Source: Nitrospiria bacterium
GTDB lineage: Bacteria; Nitrospirota; UBA9217
Direction: 5' to 3'
Assembly (NCBI GenBank): GCA_919901555.1
Contig: CAKKPG010000052.1
Coordinates: forward strand, 11,951 to 75,950
DNA: 64,000 nucleotides
The position numbers and the translations under genes were made by a program. Positions 5,043 through 32,702 of this stretch are shown here, one piece after another (within the stretch, counting starts at the first letter, position 1; each line of letters begins with the position of its first letter). Below the pieces are notes generated by a model. The model was not told where the DNA came from, did no database searches, and was given only the letters and a program-made list of their open reading frames with translations.

Positions 5043-5086
5043 TATGACCCCGGTCATACTATTACCTTGCCTTTTCATGCTATGAT
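5043..5086 (+). promoter_or_regulatory. Crp/Fnr-type site with class II promoter upstream of the cupin gene
   Basis: TATGAC-CCCG-GTCATA (5043-5058), 22 bp before an extended -10 TGC-TATGAT (5081-5086). Confidence 0.7.
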
Positions 5087-5165
5087 AAGATCATGACGAT
5101 AACGGAGTACCCATTCCCCTTTTCTCTGTTTCGCCGCTTCTAATATCTACCAAGGAGAATCCCCA

Positions 5166-5480
5166 ATGGAAACCATCGACCTCAAGAAGATGATCAGGTT
5201 CCTTCCCGACCGCATCTCCCGGGAGATGCTCAACGACAAGCCCGAGATGCGCATCGCCCTCATGTGCCTGAGCCCCGGCCAGAAGCTCGACCCGCACAAG
5301 GCGCCGCTGCGGCTGCTCATGTACTGCGTGGAGGGAAAAGGGACCTTTACCGTGGGCGATGAGAAGATCGAGGCAGGCGAGAAGACCTGCATCCTCTGCG
5401 AGCCGAACGTTCCCCACGGATTTGCCGCCGACAAGGGCGAGAAGCTGGTGGTCATGGCGATCGTGACGCCGGTGGAGTAG
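5166..5480 (+). CDS. Cupin domain protein
   Basis: PHKAP...VEGKG...PNVPHGF cupin motifs; AAGGAG RBS. Confidence 0.85.
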   Translation: METIDLKKMIRFLPDRISREMLNDKPEMRIALMCLSPGQKLDPHKAPLRLLMYCVEGKGTFTVGDEKIEAGEKTCILCEPNVPHGFAADKGEKLVVMAIVTPVE

Positions 5481-5600
5481 AATGATGAGAAGCGTGATGA
5501 TGTTTTTTTTCTGAATCTGTGGTATTATCAGAACATCCTTGGTCGTCCGGCCCCGCTTGAAACGACTGAGAACCGGTTCGCCGTCACTCCGGGACCTTCC

Positions 5601-7238
5601 ATGCGCCTTACGCTGAGCGTCAAATACGCCCTTTCCACCGCCGTCATTCTCCTCGCCGTGATGGGTATGACGCTCTTTGTCATCTCGAAGCGGCACGAAA
5701 AGCTGGTCATCGCCCAGACGGAGATGCAGGCAAAGGCGCTCTTCCAGCAGGTGGTCATCACCCGGCGGTGGATAGCCGACCACGGCGGCGTCTTTGTCGA
5801 GAAACTGCCGTGGGTAAAACCGAACCCCTATCTCCCCCGCTCCACCATCACCGATGAACAGGGCCGGCGGTACGTCAAACAGAACCCCGCACTCGTGACG
5901 AAGCAGCTCTCCTCATACGCGCAGAAGGAAGGCCTCTACTTCTTCCACATTACCAGCCTCAAGCTCATGAACCCCGACAACGCCCCTGACGCCTTCGAGG
6001 CGGCTGCCCTCGGGGACTTTGAAAACGGAAAAGCGACCGAGCTGTCGAGGATCGAAAAGATCGGGTCCTCTCATTATTTCAGATATATTGCGCCGCTCTA
6101 CGCCGAAAAAGCCTGCCTCGAATGCCATGCAAAACAGGGATACCGCGTCGGCGACATCAGGGGGGCGATCAGCATCTCCGTGCCCATGGACGCCGTGCTC
6201 GGCACCATCAGTCATGACAGAAAGTACATCCTCGTCGGGGGCGTCGGCGCCGCCGCCGTCCTCATGCTCGTCCTGTTCGTCATGACCCGGCGTATGGTCA
6301 TCAAGCCCATCGCCACCATGAGGAGCCTCATGCGCAAGTTCTCGAAGGACGGCGATCCGCGCGTTCCGCTCCTCGGAACCGGCGACGAGCTCGAAGACCT
6401 GAACGCATCATTCAGGGAGATGGCGAAGGCGATCGACGAGTACCATGCGTGCCTCCGGGAAAAGATCGGCGCCGCCACACGGGAGCTCACGGAGAAGAAC
6501 GAGGCCCTTCTCAAACTGAACAGAACGAAGTCCGATTTCATCGCGAAGACCTCTCACGAGCTGCGGACGCCCCTCACCGCCATCAAGGGGGCGATGGATT
6601 ACCTGTCGGTGAAGCTGGCCATGCGGGAGTCCGATGAGGACCGGGACCTCCTGGTCTTCTTCGAGATGATCAAAAAGAGCGCCGACCGGCTCATCCGGCT
6701 GGTGAACAACGTGCTCGAGTATGAGCGGACCGAGCTGGGCTCGTTCGAAATGAACTTCCGGGAGGTCAACCTCAAGGAGGTCTTTCAGGAGGTCGTCGCG
6801 GGGTTCAGGCCGCTCGCCGGGGAGAAGAACGTCGGCATCCGCCTCCACGCCATGGATGTCGCGGCCACCGCGGATGAGGACCGGATGAAGCAGGTGCTGA
6901 CCAATTTCCTTTCCAATGCGCTGAACTTCAGCCCGCCGTCCTCCCAGATCGTCATTTCGCTCGCGTGCAGGGACGAATATGTGCATGCATCGGTGGAGGA
7001 CCAGGGAGACGGCATTCCGGAGCAGGAGCGGGACCTGATATTCCGCCGGTTCTACACGAAGGACACCAGGGGCGGGACCGGCCTGGGACTCGCCATCTGC
7101 AAAGGCATCATCGAGGCCCACGGCGGAGAGGTCGGCGTGAAAAGCGCGGACAAAGGGGGGAGCCGTTTCTGGTTCCGGATCCCGAAAGCGAGGAAGGAAG
7201 AAAAGACCGGTGAACAAACGGCTGCTTGCAATCGATGA
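5601..7238 (+). CDS. Sensor histidine kinase with periplasmic c-type heme (DUF3365/Tll0287-like) domain, HAMP, HisKA, HATPase
   Basis: Two TMs around a domain with NPDNAPD..E and CLECH...GDIRGAISI; SHELRTPL; GTGLGL. Confidence 0.88.
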   Translation: MRLTLSVKYALSTAVILLAVMGMTLFVISKRHEKLVIAQTEMQAKALFQQVVITRRWIADHGGVFVEKLPWVKPNPYLPRSTITDEQGRRYVKQNPALVTKQLSSYAQKEGLYFFHITSLKLMNPDNAPDAFEAAALGDFENGKATELSRIEKIGSSHYFRYIAPLYAEKACLECHAKQGYRVGDIRGAISISVPMDAVLGTISHDRKYILVGGVGAAAVLMLVLFVMTRRMVIKPIATMRSLMRKFSKDGDPRVPLLGTGDELEDLNASFREMAKAIDEYHACLREKIGAATRELTEKNEALLKLNRTKSDFIAKTSHELRTPLTAIKGAMDYLSVKLAMRESDEDRDLLVFFEMIKKSADRLIRLVNNVLEYERTELGSFEMNFREVNLKEVFQEVVAGFRPLAGEKNVGIRLHAMDVAATADEDRMKQVLTNFLSNALNFSPPSSQIVISLACRDEYVHASVEDQGDGIPEQERDLIFRRFYTKDTRGGTGLGLAICKGIIEAHGGEVGVKSADKGGSRFWFRIPKARKEEKTGEQTAACNR

Positions 7239-31670: not shown

Positions 31671-31990
31671 TGTCCACCTCTTGACGGGCAGGGCCTTGCG
31701 GGCCAAGAAAGAGAGCGGACGCTTCCGGCGGCTGTTTCCGCAACGGTGTCGGCAAAAGTGAAAACCGCATGTTCATGCTCAGCCTCCGGAAGACGGAAAA
31801 CCGACCTGCGCTGATTTTGTTTATGATCTGCACTGAAGAAACAACGTCGGTTTTTCAGCGTCAAGCCGTGGCAAGGAACTTAGCCCTGCCGGCAAGTAAT
31901 CATGATTTTTCCCTGTCTCCGTGGTCATGCGGCAACCTTTCAATTTTTAAAGGATAAACTCAATTTTAATGCACATGCGCCGCTCGCGGA

Positions 31991-32034
31991 TATGATATAT
32001 ATCATATACTCCGCCTCCTGTCCGGGACTACAAT
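31991..32034 (+). promoter_or_regulatory. Crp/Fnr-type site and -10 upstream of the MOSC gene
   Basis: TATGAT-ATAT-ATCATA (31991-32006), 22 bp before TACAAT (32029-32034). Confidence 0.65.
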
Positions 32035-32039
32035 TCACC

Positions 32040-32702
32040 ATGCGCGCCATGATCGTCGAATTCCTGAACGTAGGGCTTCCCCGCAAAGAGCATTTCCCGG
32101 ACAAGGAGGTCGTCACCGGCATCTGCAAGGCGCCTGTGACAGGCCCGCTCCGGCTCGGGAAAACAGGCTTTGCGGGTGTGGACGGTGTGGGCGATAAAAA
32201 GCATCACGGCGGTCCGGACAAGGCCGTCTGCGTGTACAGCTTGGACCATTACCCCTACTGGGAAAACGTCCTGGGGTCCAGGCTCGCCCCCGCGGCCTTC
32301 GGTGAAAACCTCACCGTCTCGAACCTGCACGAGGACGCCGTGTGCATTGGCGATCTCTTCCGGCTGGGCGCCGCCCTGGTGCGGATAAGCCAGCCGCGCC
32401 AGCCGTGCGGCACGCTCGCCGCGCGCTACGGGCGGAGCGAGCTGGTCAAACTGGTCGTCGCCTCCGGCCGCACGGGTTTCTATTTCAGCGTCATGGAAGA
32501 AGGAGTCGTCACGCGGGGAGACGAACTGGTCCTTGAACAACGGGACCCCCGGGGTGTCAGTATATCGTTCGCCAATCATATATTCCACCATGATAAAAAT
32601 AATTGTGAGGGCATTGATCGCGTCCTTGCCGTACCCGCCCTTTCCGAGTCCTGGAGACGGTCGTTTCTCGAACTGAGAGAAAAGTGCACTGCCGGACCGT
32701 AA
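32040..32702 (+). CDS. MOSC domain protein (YiiM-like)
   Basis: HHGGPDKAV, FGENLT, SQPRQPC, RTGFY; start 32040 or 32049. Confidence 0.88.
   Translation: MRAMIVEFLNVGLPRKEHFPDKEVVTGICKAPVTGPLRLGKTGFAGVDGVGDKKHHGGPDKAVCVYSLDHYPYWENVLGSRLAPAAFGENLTVSNLHEDAVCIGDLFRLGAALVRISQPRQPCGTLAARYGRSELVKLVVASGRTGFYFSVMEEGVVTRGDELVLEQRDPRGVSISFANHIFHHDKNNCEGIDRVLAVPALSESWRRSFLELREKCTAGP

What the first reader, a model, noticed from the sequence alone, without database searches (positions are those of the whole stretch)
5043..32702. A 28-kb nitrogen-oxide respiration island with redundant enzymes and several sensory inputs
Seen: NapA with a NapM-like cytochrome and NapDGH, two ammonia-forming nitrite reductases (octaheme ONR and NrfHA), and two distinct cNORs. 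Also present are a c'-like cytochrome, a globin-PsiE protein, HPP/CBS, rubredoxin, MOSC, a c-heme kinase/OmpR pair and a NarX-like kinase. No nirS, nirK or nosZ occurs in the window. Inference: a DNRA module coupled to NO scavenging (N2O release), run by at least four regulatory inputs (OmpR boxes, sigma54, a Crp/Fnr motif, a NarX-type kinase). I do not know this combination as a described single locus.
Basis: partly seen in the sequence, partly recalled or inferred. Interest (0 to 1): 0.85.

Follow-up and report, generated by a model that had tools for sequence, protein, structure and literature searches.

The report
Nitrate-to-ammonia and nitric-oxide gene supercluster
A groundwater-type Nitrospirota bacterium keeps its genes for turning nitrate into ammonia and for removing toxic nitric oxide side by side in one 27-kb stretch, which is an unusually complete but not fundamentally new arrangement of known modules.

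Summary
Window 5166-32702 holds 25 genes: a c-haem sensor kinase with an OmpR partner, a TvNiR-type octahaem nitrite reductase (ONR), napMADGH, nrfHA, two cNORs, a c'-like cytochrome, HPP, a CBS protein, globin-PsiE, rubredoxin, MOSC and a three-gene signalling set.

The host is a Thermodesulfovibrionales (Nitrospirota) MAG, 96.5% complete. No nirS, nirK, nosZ or norQ was found in it. This pattern is family-wide: nosZ was found in 0 of 24 related genomes and no credible nirS or nirK, while 16 of 24 carry a strong NorB.

So "nitrate ammonification plus NO removal ending at N2O" is the best reading.

The locus is not a mobile island and not one operon. It is a mosaic of modules that recur separately in relatives. 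None of 80 related loci has the full set. One related genome shares the right half (norCB1 through nrfHA to norCB2).

Nap-ONR adjacency, NrfA/ONR redundancy and nor without nosZ in ammonifiers are already published. The sigma54, Fnr and OmpR-box claims did not hold up.

New details: both NorC subunits carry a second haem domain, and a NapH/CcoG-like gene travels with norCB. The ONR has a CX4CH eighth haem motif, and the genome holds three ONR-family genes plus NrfA.

Interest is moderate.

The parts
5166..5480 (+). Small cupin (104 aa). In relatives it usually sits next to norCB or the NapH/CcoG-like gene.
   Evidence: Pfam Cupin_2 41 bits. 75-88% identical copies in 17 of 80 related loci.
5601..7238 (+). 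Sensor histidine kinase with a periplasmic Tll0287-like c-haem domain (one CXXCH at residue 172), HAMP, HisKA and HATPase.
   Evidence: PDB 5b82 Tll0287 E 1.6e-5.
7210..7887 (+). OmpR-type response regulator. It overlaps the end of the kinase gene.
   Evidence: Response_reg plus Trans_reg_C. An orthologous pair lies upstream of nap in L069 and L071, and the OmpR alone in L032.
8176..9840 (+). Octahaem nitrite reductase (ONR, TvNiR type). It has 6 CXXCH, CXXCK at residue 216, and CX4CH (CLTSRCH) at residue 442 as the eighth haem motif. A terminator-like hairpin follows at 9860-9880.
9924..10301 (+). NapM-like periplasmic tetrahaem cytochrome c. It overlaps the napA start.
   Evidence: Four CXXCH motifs and multihaem Pfam hits. 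The name NapM rests on its position in the operon and is recalled from Desulfovibrio napCMADGH.
10298..12604 (+). Monomeric periplasmic nitrate reductase NapA with a Tat signal.
   Evidence: NCBIfam NapA 704 bits, below the equivalog cut-off of 904. PDB 2jio 879 bits, end to end.
12794..13084 (+). NapD chaperone. The likely start is the Met at about 12854.
   Evidence: Pfam NapD 41 bits.
13062..13553 (+). NapG ferredoxin-type subunit.
   Evidence: Multiple 4Fe-4S domains. 73% identical in L032 next to NapA.
13550..14344 (+). NapH membrane quinol dehydrogenase subunit. A terminator-like hairpin follows at 14370-14393.
   Evidence: Fer4_5 64 bits.
14519..15202 (+). NorC1. Residues 1-133 are the TM anchor plus NorC haem domain. 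Residues 136-227 are an extra monohaem cytochrome c domain, giving 2 CXXCH in total.
   Evidence: PDB 3o0r_C E 2e-29 over residues 6-133. The same two-domain form occurs in all of the 120 best database relatives.
15268..16653 (+). NorB1, the cNOR catalytic subunit. A terminator-like hairpin follows at 16690-16715.
   Evidence: COX1 235 bits. 3o0r_B 382 bits, with the HLWVEG, GHH, LEP and HGH motifs aligned..
16785..17282 (+). Cytochrome c'-like periplasmic protein with a His-rich N-terminal part and one C-terminal CXXCH.
   Evidence: Pfam Cytochrom_C_2 24.9 bits, just under the cut-off.. Homologue found in 6 of 80 related loci.
17339..18280 (+). NapH/CcoG-like membrane protein with two 4Fe-4S motifs. 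It is the accessory gene most constantly found with norCB.
   Evidence: Fer4_5 and Fer4_18. NCBIfam CcoG 62 bits and NapH 51 bits, both far below their cut-offs. Present in 34 of 49 loci that have at least 5 kb downstream of NorB1.
18821..19285 (+). NrfH tetrahaem quinol dehydrogenase.
   Evidence: TIGR03153 152 bits, above the cut-off of 134. Four CXXCH motifs.
19300..20766 (+). NrfA pentahaem ammonia-forming nitrite reductase (CXXCK plus 4 CXXCH). A terminator-like hairpin follows at 20796-20819.
   Evidence: Pfam Cytochrom_C552 522 bits..
20832..21419 (-). HPP-family membrane protein. The family includes nitrite transporters of plastids and cyanobacteria (recalled).
   Evidence: TM_HPP 205 bits.
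21451..22038 (-). CBS-pair protein, encoded just upstream of HPP.
   Evidence: CBS 114 bits, two stretches.
22174..23160 (-). Membrane-bound globin-coupled sensor (protoglobin domain plus PsiE-type TM domain).
   Evidence: Atlas clusters with the same two domains. The Geobacter GCS is described in PMC8076648 (search listing and abstract start).
23195..24523 (-). NorB2, a second cNOR catalytic subunit, 46-49% identical to NorB1.
   Evidence: COX1 225 bits. 3o0r_B 384 bits with the active-site motifs aligned. Identity.
24533..25234 (-). NorC2, also with two haem domains (CXXCH at residues 57 and 166).
25499..25657 (-). Rubredoxin (52 aa), upstream of norC2 on the same strand.
   Evidence: Pfam Rubredoxin 82 bits. 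Motif scan.
26234..27844 (-). Response regulator with an HD (HD_5, HD-GYP-type) output domain.
27841..28224 (-). Single-domain response regulator.
28221..31706 (-). 1161-aa sensor kinase. Its parts are a PilJ/NarX-like periplasmic domain with a P-box-like AGQLRFRS, then HAMP, GAF, 2 PAS, HisKA and HATPase.
   Evidence: NarQ 5iji E 0.062.
31902..32702 (+). MOSC/YiiM-type molybdenum-cofactor sulfurase C-terminal domain protein. In relatives it lies next to HPP-CBS.
   Evidence: MOSC 122 bits plus YiiM_3-alpha. Adjacent to HPP-CBS-globin-norCB2 in L103 and L104.

Best explanation
This is a chromosomal supercluster for periplasmic nitrogen-oxide respiration in a Thermodesulfovibrionales bacterium. 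It was built by juxtaposing modules that the lineage carries separately elsewhere.

Proposed pathway:
- Step 1, inferred from family membership. Monomeric NapA reduces nitrate to nitrite, fed by NapGH and the tetrahaem NapM-like cytochrome.
- Step 2, inferred. Nitrite is reduced in one six-electron step to ammonium by NrfA, fed from the quinol pool by NrfH. The octahaem ONR encoded directly upstream of nap runs in parallel.
- Step 3, inferred. Two old paralogous cNORs reduce NO to N2O. The NO may leak from these haem enzymes, form chemically from nitrite with sulfide or Fe(II), or come from neighbouring cells. Each cNOR takes electrons through a NorC that has an extra fused cytochrome c domain.
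- No nosZ was found, so N2O leaves the cell.

Around each norCB sits a recurrent accessory set:
- a cupin;
- a NapH/CcoG-like Fe-S membrane protein, most likely a maturation or redox-maintenance factor;
- a c'-like NO-binding cytochrome;
- HPP plus a CBS protein, a possible nitrite channel;
- a membrane globin sensor, rubredoxin and MOSC.

This set reads as a nitrosative-stress and NO-handling kit.

Transcription is modular. Hairpins follow ONR, napH, norB1 and nrfA. The c-haem kinase/OmpR pair most likely controls the nap/ONR part.
For: Absences in the 96.5%-complete genome:
- nirS: only 21-27-bit propeller repeats within one 1105-aa frame.
- nirK: 26 bits against a cut-off of 296.
- nosZ clade II and clade I: none.

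Family-wide pattern in 24 related genomes:
- nosZ in 0 of 24. The same search found nosZ at 795-801 bits in two genomes of another family.
- nirS in 0 of 24, apart from one 41-bit fragment.
- nirK: none over the cut-off.
- Strong NorB in 16 of 24. ONR in 13 of 24.

Modularity:
- Among 80 loci around NorB1 orthologues, 76 have NorC1. Of the 49 with enough downstream DNA, 34 have the NapH/CcoG-like gene. HPP and CBS are each in 21. NapA-like is in only 6, ONR in 2 and NrfA in 2. None has all three.
- L032 has OmpR-napMADGH-norCB. L024, L046 and L101 have ONR next to norCB. G009 has norC2B2-globin-CBS-HPP-nrfAH-cupin-NapH-like-c'-norB1C1.
- Terminator-like hairpins lie at the four module ends.

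Not mobile: GC is 0.583 against 0.568 for the genome. There is no tRNA. No integrase or transposase appeared among the ORFs scanned.

Literature:
- Ammonifiers with nor but no nosZ are common and are read as NO detoxifiers that emit N2O (PMC10716430, passages).
- nap next to onr is read as a coupled DNRA module (PMC11972089, passages).

Weak hint of use in nature: an aquifer RNA library holds contigs identical to pieces of ONR, napM/napA, norC1/norB1, nrfH and nrfA. The tool warns that DNA can be present in such libraries.
Against: - No activity, transcript level or product was measured. Every catalytic step rests on homology.
- cNOR is the respiratory NOR of denitrifiers. Two copies plus family-wide retention look like more than a safety valve.
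- In a relative, norBC were among the most transcribed genes and far above nrfA. Those authors favoured NO respiration (PMC8906906, passages).
- The MAG is 96.5% complete in 220 contigs, so a nir or nos gene on missing DNA cannot be excluded.
- The role of the NapH/CcoG-like protein is a guess. It scores far below both family cut-offs.
- The HPP nitrite-transport role is recalled from plants and cyanobacteria and was not tested here.
Confidence: 0.7

Rival explanations
1. NO respiration or scavenging is the main purpose, not a side branch. The two cNORs are terminal reductases for NO supplied by neighbouring denitrifiers or by abiotic nitrite chemistry, coupled to sulfur-compound oxidation. 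Nap/Nrf/ONR are then secondary.
For: - cNOR is kept in 16 of 24 family genomes that show no nir or nos.
- Two anciently diverged copies sit here. They are 46-49% identical to each other, whereas orthologues across genera are 81-96% identical.
- DsrAB is present in the genome. Three cytochrome b genes for bc-type complexes could make electron flow to NorC energy-conserving.
- In Ca. Nitrobium versatile, norBC were among the most transcribed functional genes. The authors proposed sulfide oxidation coupled to NO reduction (PMC8906906, passages).
- That organism's NorC homologue is 68% identical to NorC1, judged from a UniRef name that begins 'Candidatus Nitrob'.
Against: - cNOR itself is described as not conserving energy (PMC11214002, passage).
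- Free NO is scarce and toxic.
- The same paper reports that the organism could not be enriched on sulfide plus NO.
- The physical linkage with nap, nrf and onr argues that the NORs serve nitrate/nitrite metabolism.
Confidence: 0.3
2. Cryptic partial denitrification. One of the multihaem enzymes, or an unrecognised nitrite reductase, makes NO on purpose. The cluster then respires nitrate to N2O as well as to ammonium.
For: - The genome holds four NrfA-family proteins: NrfA, two ONRs, and a divergent octahaem protein on C137. That is more than ammonification seems to need.
- nor genes are interleaved with the nitrite reductase genes (onward).
Against: - All four keep the CXXCK active-site motif of ammonia-forming enzymes.
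- No nirS or nirK homologue was found.
- No precedent was found in the passages read.
Confidence: 0.1
3. A horizontally acquired genomic island that brought the whole nitrogen-oxide toolkit in at once.
For: - The functional density is striking.
- The closest related loci lack nap, ONR and, in most cases, nrf at this place.
- Short dispersed repeats lie at 12626-12737 and 26011-26049.
Against: - GC is 0.583 against a genome value of 0.568. There is no tRNA. No integrase or transposase domain appeared in the ORFs scanned.
- Every module has orthologues at 65-96% identity in related Thermodesulfovibrionales genomes. That pattern fits rearrangement within the lineage.
Confidence: 0.05

Closest known systems
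Nap-ONR ammonification module of Trichlorobacter ammonificans and T. lovleyi (Geobacterales)
   Same: - An octahaem TvNiR-type nitrite reductase gene lies directly beside nap genes and is read as a coupled periplasmic nitrate-to-ammonium route.
- T. lovleyi also combines ONR with pentahaem NrfA/NrfH.
- Source: PMC11972089, passages. The primary paper (Sorokin 2023) was not held.
   Different: - Here ONR lies upstream of nap rather than downstream.
- The module is preceded by a c-haem kinase/OmpR pair.
- It is fused into one stretch with two cNOR modules and nrfHA.
- The ONR has CX4CH in place of the last CXXCH.
- The host is in another phylum.
Thioalkalivibrio octahaem nitrite reductase TvNiR (PDB 2zo5, 2ot4)
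   Same: - 506 bits, aligned over residues 43-553.
- Three extra N-terminal haems plus an NrfA-like five-haem core.
- CXXCK active-site haem.
- The stretch CxQCHVEYNCNPG after haem 6 is conserved.
   Different: - The eighth haem motif is CLTSRCH, where TvNiR has CLNCH.
- The genomic context differs.
cNOR of Pseudomonas aeruginosa (norCBQD; PDB 3o0r)
   Same: - NorB1 scores 382 bits and NorB2 384 bits.
- The motifs carrying the His and Glu ligands align.
- NorC residues 6-133 align.
   Different: - NorC carries a second, fused cytochrome c domain.
- No norQ (CbbQ_C) was found in the genome, and only 4 of the 16 NorB-bearing relatives have it.
- A NapH/CcoG-like gene accompanies norCB instead.
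- No nir or nos partners were found.
nor-bearing, nosZ-lacking nitrate ammonifiers surveyed by Saghai et al. 2023 (PMC10716430)
   Same: The genotype is nrfA and/or onr plus nor without nosZ, read as NO detoxification with net N2O production.
   Different: - That survey found both nrfA and onr in only 12 of 1218 assemblies, and more than one onr copy in 1 assembly (passages).
- This genome has nrfA plus three ONR-family genes, with part of the set clustered physically.
- The survey's supplementary tables could not be seen. They may list this lineage.
Membrane-bound globin-coupled sensor of Geobacter sulfurreducens (PMC8076648)
   Same: A sensor globin domain is fused to a PsiE-type transmembrane domain.
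   Different: - Here it is encoded inside a norCB operon-like string: rubredoxin-norC2-norB2-globin-CBS-HPP.
- Only the search listing and the start of the abstract of that paper were seen.

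Membership tests
Octahaem nitrite reductase (ONR / TvNiR family) | Full-length similarity to TvNiR, with three N-terminal haem motifs ahead of an NrfA-like core. | tested here: met
   E 1.2e-150 and 506 bits, query 43-553 against chain 8-520. Haem motifs at residues 49, 70 and 99, then 216, 260, 326, 410 and 442.
Octahaem nitrite reductase (ONR / TvNiR family) | Seven CXXCH plus one CXXCK (active-site lysine haem). 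| tested here: inconclusive
   CXXCK is present. Only six CXXCH are present. The eighth site is CX4CH, aligned to TvNiR CLNCH. The same variant occurs in two other ONRs of the lineage, so it is not a sequencing error. Whether it binds haem was not tested.
Octahaem nitrite reductase (ONR / TvNiR family) | Conserved Tyr and Cys after the haem-6 motif. Their role as the cross-linked catalytic pair is recalled. | tested here: met
   CGQCHVEYNCNPG aligns with the identical TvNiR stretch.
NrfHA cytochrome c nitrite reductase | NrfA with CXXCK plus four CXXCH, and an adjacent NrfH tetrahaem quinol dehydrogenase. | tested here: met
   Pfam 522 bits and the motif count. NrfH TIGR03153 at 152 bits exceeds the cut-off of 134. 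NrfA stays below the enterobacterial equivalog cut-off, 207 against 595.
Monomeric NapA system (Desulfovibrio type, napMADGH) | Tat signal, 4Fe-4S and Mo-bisPGD domains, close similarity to D. desulfuricans NapA, and NapD/G/H partners. | tested here: met
   879 bits to 2jio over residues 38-768. No NapB or NapC was seen among the ORFs of the cluster.
cNOR (NorCB) | NorB with the conserved His ligands, the FeB glutamate motif HLWVEG, GHH and HGH. NorC with a TM anchor and one haem c. | tested here: met
   Alignments to 3o0r_B and 3o0r_C. Both NorC proteins have an additional haem domain.
cNOR (NorCB) | Accessory norQ/norD genes of the proteobacterial operon. | tested here: not met
   CbbQ_C has no match in the genome. 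It is present in 6 of 24 family genomes. norD was not searched.
Canonical denitrification pathway | NO-forming nitrite reductase (nirS or nirK) and nosZ in the same genome. | tested here: not met
   Genome completeness is 96.5%.
Mobile genomic island | Integrase or transposase, a tRNA or direct-repeat borders, and deviant composition. | tested here: not met
   No tRNA. GC is 0.583 against 0.568. The flanks hold lipase, CopD-like and ABC-efflux genes.
NarX/NarQ-NarL nitrate sensing system | P-box periplasmic sensor, HisKA_3 dimerisation domain, and a NarL (GerE) partner. | tested here: not met
   There is only a weak sensor match with a P-box-like AGQLRFRS. The core is HisKA, and the neighbours are a receiver-only and a receiver-HD protein. 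A true HisKA_3/GerE pair lies elsewhere, on contig C137.
CcoG / NapH ferredoxin-type membrane proteins | Score above the family cut-off. For CcoG, also the FixG_C domain. | tested here: not met
   CcoG scores 62 bits against a cut-off of 317, and NapH 51 against 213. There is no FixG_C domain, whereas the genome's real CcoG on C55 has it. The protein shares Fer4_5 and Fer4_18, one CX3CP and two CX2CX2CX3C motifs.

The most novel reading that the evidence does not exclude
Thermodesulfovibrionales carry their own self-contained form of cNOR. Its parts are a NorC with a fused donor cytochrome, no NorQ/NorD, and a dedicated NapH/CcoG-like Fe-S membrane protein. That protein would load or keep reduced the non-haem iron site, by analogy with CcoG for the copper of cbb3 oxidases, or would feed the enzyme electrons. 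A cupin, an HPP/CBS channel and a membrane globin travel with it. This kit would let a whole nir-less and nos-less family live as NO scavengers and N2O sources in aquifers. The window shows two anciently diverged copies of the kit welded to a triple nitrite-ammonification system.
Probability: 0.25. Interest if true: 0.6.

Novelty: new variant of a known kind. Interest (0 to 1): 0.4.

Why it matters
- Ammonifiers that also reduce NO but cannot reduce N2O retain nitrogen as ammonium and emit a greenhouse gas at the same time. Knowing which lineages do this matters for nitrogen budgets in groundwater and sediments.
- All 24 searched relatives of this genome show no nosZ and no credible nir, yet most keep cNOR. 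That marks the family as a candidate N2O source or NO sink.
- The locus gives a compact, testable parts list for a little-studied form of cNOR: the two-haem NorC, the NapH/CcoG-like partner, the HPP/CBS pair and the globin sensor.
- A cultured relative, Dissulfurispira thermophila, carries the same two-haem NorC, so experiments are feasible.

Tried and rejected
- **nos_propeller (PF18764) as a nosZ probe.** The control genomes did not ring, so the result was uninformative. I replaced it with TIGR04246 and TIGR04244. One search then found nosZ in other Nitrospirota, which serves as the positive control.
- **Fnr/Crp motif.** TTGAT-N4-ATCAA with up to 1 mismatch gave one site, outside the island. 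TTGA-N6-TCAA gave one site, at 4585, also outside.
- **Sigma54.** One site at 18659-18673. The window has 3 sites against 4.2 expected by chance. The strict pattern is missing upstream of nrfH in L010 and L054. No enhancer-binding protein gene is in the cluster.
- **OmpR boxes.** No targeted search was run. The generic repeat scan found only a weak two-copy 10-nt repeat upstream of ONR.
- **Rfam.** No family matched at gathering score in the window.
- **Is NorB2 one of the non-canonical HCO families (the putative N2O reductase or others of PMC11214002)?** Rejected. It scores 384 bits to P. aeruginosa NorB, with the cNOR motifs aligned.
- **Does the NapH/CcoG-like protein replace a missing bc complex?** Weakened. 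The genome has three cytochrome b genes.
- **NarG.** No match over the cut-off. A 928-aa relative on C97 was not pursued.
- **Read laying.**
  - Parts of the stretch without RNA-library contigs are not interpreted.
  - A single X7 contig joins 9182 to 20197 with only 23 letters on the shorter side. I take it as a cross-match between the homologous ONR and NrfA genes, or as another organism.
  - X20 pieces differ at 6-14 positions each and belong to relatives.
- **Not used.** Sorokin et al. 2023 was not held. Supplementary tables of the papers cited were not available and may list gene clusters of this lineage. No structure prediction, complex prediction or wide profile search was run. The questions left open are functional rather than about fold.

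Full report
**What is there**

ORF listing and Pfam, NCBIfam and PDB-sequence searches give 25 genes between 5166 and 32702.

On the plus strand, in order:
- a small cupin;
- a sensor kinase with a Tll0287-type c-haem domain, and its OmpR-type regulator;
- an octahaem nitrite reductase (ONR);
- a tetrahaem NapM-like cytochrome, NapA, NapD, NapG and NapH;
- NorC1 and NorB1;
- a c'-like cytochrome;
- a NapH/CcoG-like Fe-S membrane protein;
- NrfH and NrfA.

Converging on these from the minus strand:
- rubredoxin, NorC2, NorB2, a protoglobin-PsiE protein, a CBS-pair protein and an HPP protein;
- further upstream on that strand, a 1161-aa multi-domain kinase, a receiver-only protein and a receiver-HD protein.

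MOSC/YiiM closes the set on the plus strand. The flanks are unrelated. To the left lie a GDSL lipase and a CopD/cytochrome-b5-like protein. To the right lie ABC-2 efflux genes, TetR and RtcB.

**Strength of the identifications**

| Protein | Evidence |
|---|---|
| ONR | Aligns with TvNiR over residues 43-553, E 1.2e-150 |
| NapA | 879 bits to the monomeric Desulfovibrio desulfuricans enzyme, end to end |
| NorB1 / NorB2 | 382 / 384 bits to Pseudomonas aeruginosa NorB, ligand-bearing motifs aligned |
| NrfH | Exceeds its equivalog cut-off |
| HPP | 205 bits |
| Rubredoxin | 82 bits |
| c'-like cytochrome | Marginal: 24.9 bits against a cut-off of 26.5 |
| Large kinase, sensor domain | PilJ domain 29 bits; E 0.06 to NarQ; recognisable P-box-like AGQLRFRS |

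The large kinase's core is HisKA, not HisKA_3, and its partners are not NarL-type.

**Is the layout real?**

Contigs from public runs of two different studies tile 5601-25600 with few or no differences. One contig runs from 13433 to 18315, from inside napG to the end of the NapH/CcoG-like gene, so it crosses the napH-norC1 junction. One of those runs may be the window's source sample.

**Host and rest of the genome**

The window lies in a 3.45-Mb assembly of 220 contigs, 96.5% complete and 1.1% contaminated. All 80 loci found with NorB1 come from records titled Nitrospirota, Nitrospirae or Thermodesulfovibrionales, or from unclassified MAGs.

Genome-wide searches gave the following:
- **nirS:** only 21-27-bit propeller repeats inside one 1105-aa frame.
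- **nirK:** 26 bits against a cut-off of 296.
- **nosZ:** neither clade.
- **norQ-type CbbQ_C domain:** none.
- **Haem-copper enzymes:** the two NorB, a cbb3 oxidase cluster (Rrf2 regulator, ccoNOP, a true ccoG with the FixG_C domain, ccoI) on contig C55, and one weak 23.7-bit fragment, below the cut-off, on contig C179.
- **NrfA family:** four members. These are NrfA, the window ONR, a second ONR 73-75% identical to it standing alone on C18, and a divergent octahaem CXXCK protein on C137 beside a HisKA_3 kinase and a GerE-type regulator.
- **Other:** DsrAB and three cytochrome b genes are present. No NarG scores over its cut-off.

**Relatives**

I searched 40 related genomes. Of these, 24 are in the same family, all in other genera.

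| Feature | Result |
|---|---|
| nosZ | 0 of 24 in the family; two genomes of another family scored 795-801 bits in the same search |
| nirS | Absent in the family except one 41-bit fragment; five genomes outside the family had it at about 200 bits or more |
| nirK | No family member over the cut-off |
| Strong NorB (E below 1e-100) | 16 of 24 |
| ONR | 13 of 24 |
| CbbQ_C | 6 of 24, and only 4 of the 16 NorB-bearing genomes |

Three NorB types occur in the family:
- NorB1-like, 47-50% identical to NorB2;
- NorB2-like, 81-91% identical to NorB2;
- a third type, 58-60% identical to NorB2.

Only G009 and G021 have both the NorB1 and NorB2 types, as the window's genome does.

**Synteny**

I compared 24 window proteins with the 80 NorB1 loci. 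The criteria were tblastn E at most 1e-8 and one alignment covering at least half the query.

| Gene found near NorB1 | Loci |
|---|---|
| NorC1 | 76 of 80 |
| NapH/CcoG-like | 45 of 80; 34 of the 49 with at least 5 kb downstream |
| HPP | 21 of 80 |
| CBS | 21 of 80 |
| Cupin | 17 of 80 |
| c'-like cytochrome | 6 of 80 |
| MOSC | 5 of 80 |
| Globin-PsiE | 3 of 80 |
| NapA-like | 6 of 80 (one at only 25% identity) |
| ONR | 2 of 80 |
| NrfA | 2 of 80 |

No locus has NapA, ONR and NrfA together. Many loci are cut short by contig ends, so these are lower bounds.

Informative cases:
- L032 has OmpR-napMADGH-norCB.
- L069 and L071 have c-haem kinase-OmpR-napA-napGH, then norCB.
- L024, L046 and L101 have ONR directly upstream of norCB.
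- L103 and L104 have MOSC-HPP-CBS, globin, norC2B2 and cupin.
- G009 (L097, L098) has norC2B2-globin-CBS-HPP-nrfAH-cupin-NapH-like-c'-norB1C1. That is the window's right half in mirror image, with the cupin in a different place.

So the window is the fullest combination seen, but it is assembled from units that recur.

**Not a mobile island, not one operon**

GC is 0.583 for the cluster and 0.568 for the genome. There is no tRNA and no mobility gene among the ORFs scanned. Strong terminator-like hairpins follow ONR (9860), napH (14370), norB1 (16690) and nrfA (20796). This fits separate transcription units.

**Regulatory claims**

- The Fnr/Crp motif was not found in the island.
- The single sigma54-like site upstream of nrfH is not more than chance gives, and it is not conserved.
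- The c-haem kinase/OmpR pair is the best-supported regulator. Orthologous pairs precede nap in two other loci, and the OmpR alone in a third.

1. Both NorC proteins have a second cytochrome c domain. All of the 120 best of 1077 database relatives share this form (197-239 aa, two cytochrome c domains). They include a protein of the cultured Dissulfurispira thermophila and one whose UniRef name begins 'Candidatus Nitrob'.
2. The ONR's last haem motif is CX4CH. The same variant is in the genome's second ONR and in L101, but not in L024 or L046.
3. The NapH/CcoG-like gene is the most faithful companion of norCB. It is distinct from the genome's real CcoG and NapH.

**Comparison with print**

- PMC10716430 (passages): of 1218 assemblies with nrfA and/or onr, 12 had both and one had more than one onr. 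About 40% carried a denitrification gene, mostly nor. The authors read this as N2O production through NO detoxification.
- PMC11972089 (passages): in T. lovleyi the ONR gene lies directly downstream of nap, beside two NrfA elsewhere in the genome. In T. ammonificans, Nap and ONR form the DNRA route.
- PMC11033732 (passages): norBC and nap are common in Thermodesulfovibrionia.
- PMC8906906 (passages): Ca. Nitrobium versatile transcribed norBC far more than nrfA. The authors proposed sulfide oxidation coupled to NO reduction.
- PMC8076648 (listing and abstract start): a membrane-bound globin-coupled sensor with a PsiE-like domain exists in Geobacter.
- My searches turned up no description of this locus architecture or of the two-haem NorC. 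The library lacks most subscription journals and all supplements.

**Expression**

An aquifer RNA library (X17) holds short contigs identical to pieces of ONR, napM/napA, norC1/norB1, nrfH and nrfA. The tool warns that DNA can be present in such libraries and that contigs give no levels. I count this as a weak hint only.

**Verdict**

It over-reaches on regulation and on novelty.

The thing is a new, unusually complete variant of known module combinations. It comes with a lineage-typical form of cNOR and its accessory genes, which deserve experimental attention.

Noticed in passing
window 12626-12737 and 26011-26049: Short AT-rich repeats (AATTGAAAATTGGAAATT-like) and an adjacent GC-rich palindrome. 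They lie in the napA-napD spacer and, in reverse complement, upstream of rubredoxin. Similar 30-nt pieces occur on about 20 other contigs of the genome. Public-run contigs break there and depth rises. This looks like a REP-like dispersed element.
   Followed up: partly
G000 contig C137:1105-5286 (L107): A third, divergent octahaem CXXCK protein of the NrfA/ONR family (683-aa frame, 26% identical to the window ONR). It lies next to a GerE-type response regulator and a PAS/HisKA_3 kinase, that is, a NarXL-class pair. A weak NarG-like 1191-aa frame and a cytochrome b gene are on the same contig.
   Followed up: partly
G000 contig C18:12762-14567 (L106 6762-8567): A second ONR, 73-75% identical to the window's. 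It also has the CX4CH last haem motif. It stands among unrelated genes (CrcB, DUF190, heptosyltransferase).
   Followed up: partly
G000 contig C55:18533-25631 (L108): An Rrf2-family regulator followed by ccoN, ccoO, ccoP, a true ccoG (with the FixG_C domain) and a copper P-type ATPase. The organism therefore has a cbb3 oxidase and is probably microaerotolerant.
   Followed up: partly
window 887-2191 (-) and 3242-4165 (+): A 434-aa ORF with no Pfam match, and a membrane protein combining CopD-like and cytochrome-b5-like domains. Both lie just left of the cluster.
   Followed up: no
window 18281-18820: A 540-nt gap between the NapH/CcoG-like gene and nrfH with no convincing ORF. In relatives the cupin gene sits at this position (L010, L054), whereas here the cupin is at 5166-5480. 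This suggests a local rearrangement.
   Followed up: partly
L009 12074-14245 and L054 6026-8202: In several relatives about 2 kb of DNA lies between the c'-like gene and the NapH/CcoG-like gene, and matches none of the 24 window proteins. An extra gene of the nor module may be missing from the window.
   Followed up: no
G000 contigs C39:22171-24353 and C97:4560-7151: DsrA and DsrB are present. A 928-aa molybdoenzyme is related to NarG but scores well below its cut-off.
   Followed up: no
G005 C15:1625349-1626667 (L102): A second NorB2-type gene in a relative appears split into two frames, matching residues 1-115 and 95-440. It may be a frameshift or a pseudogene.
   Followed up: no
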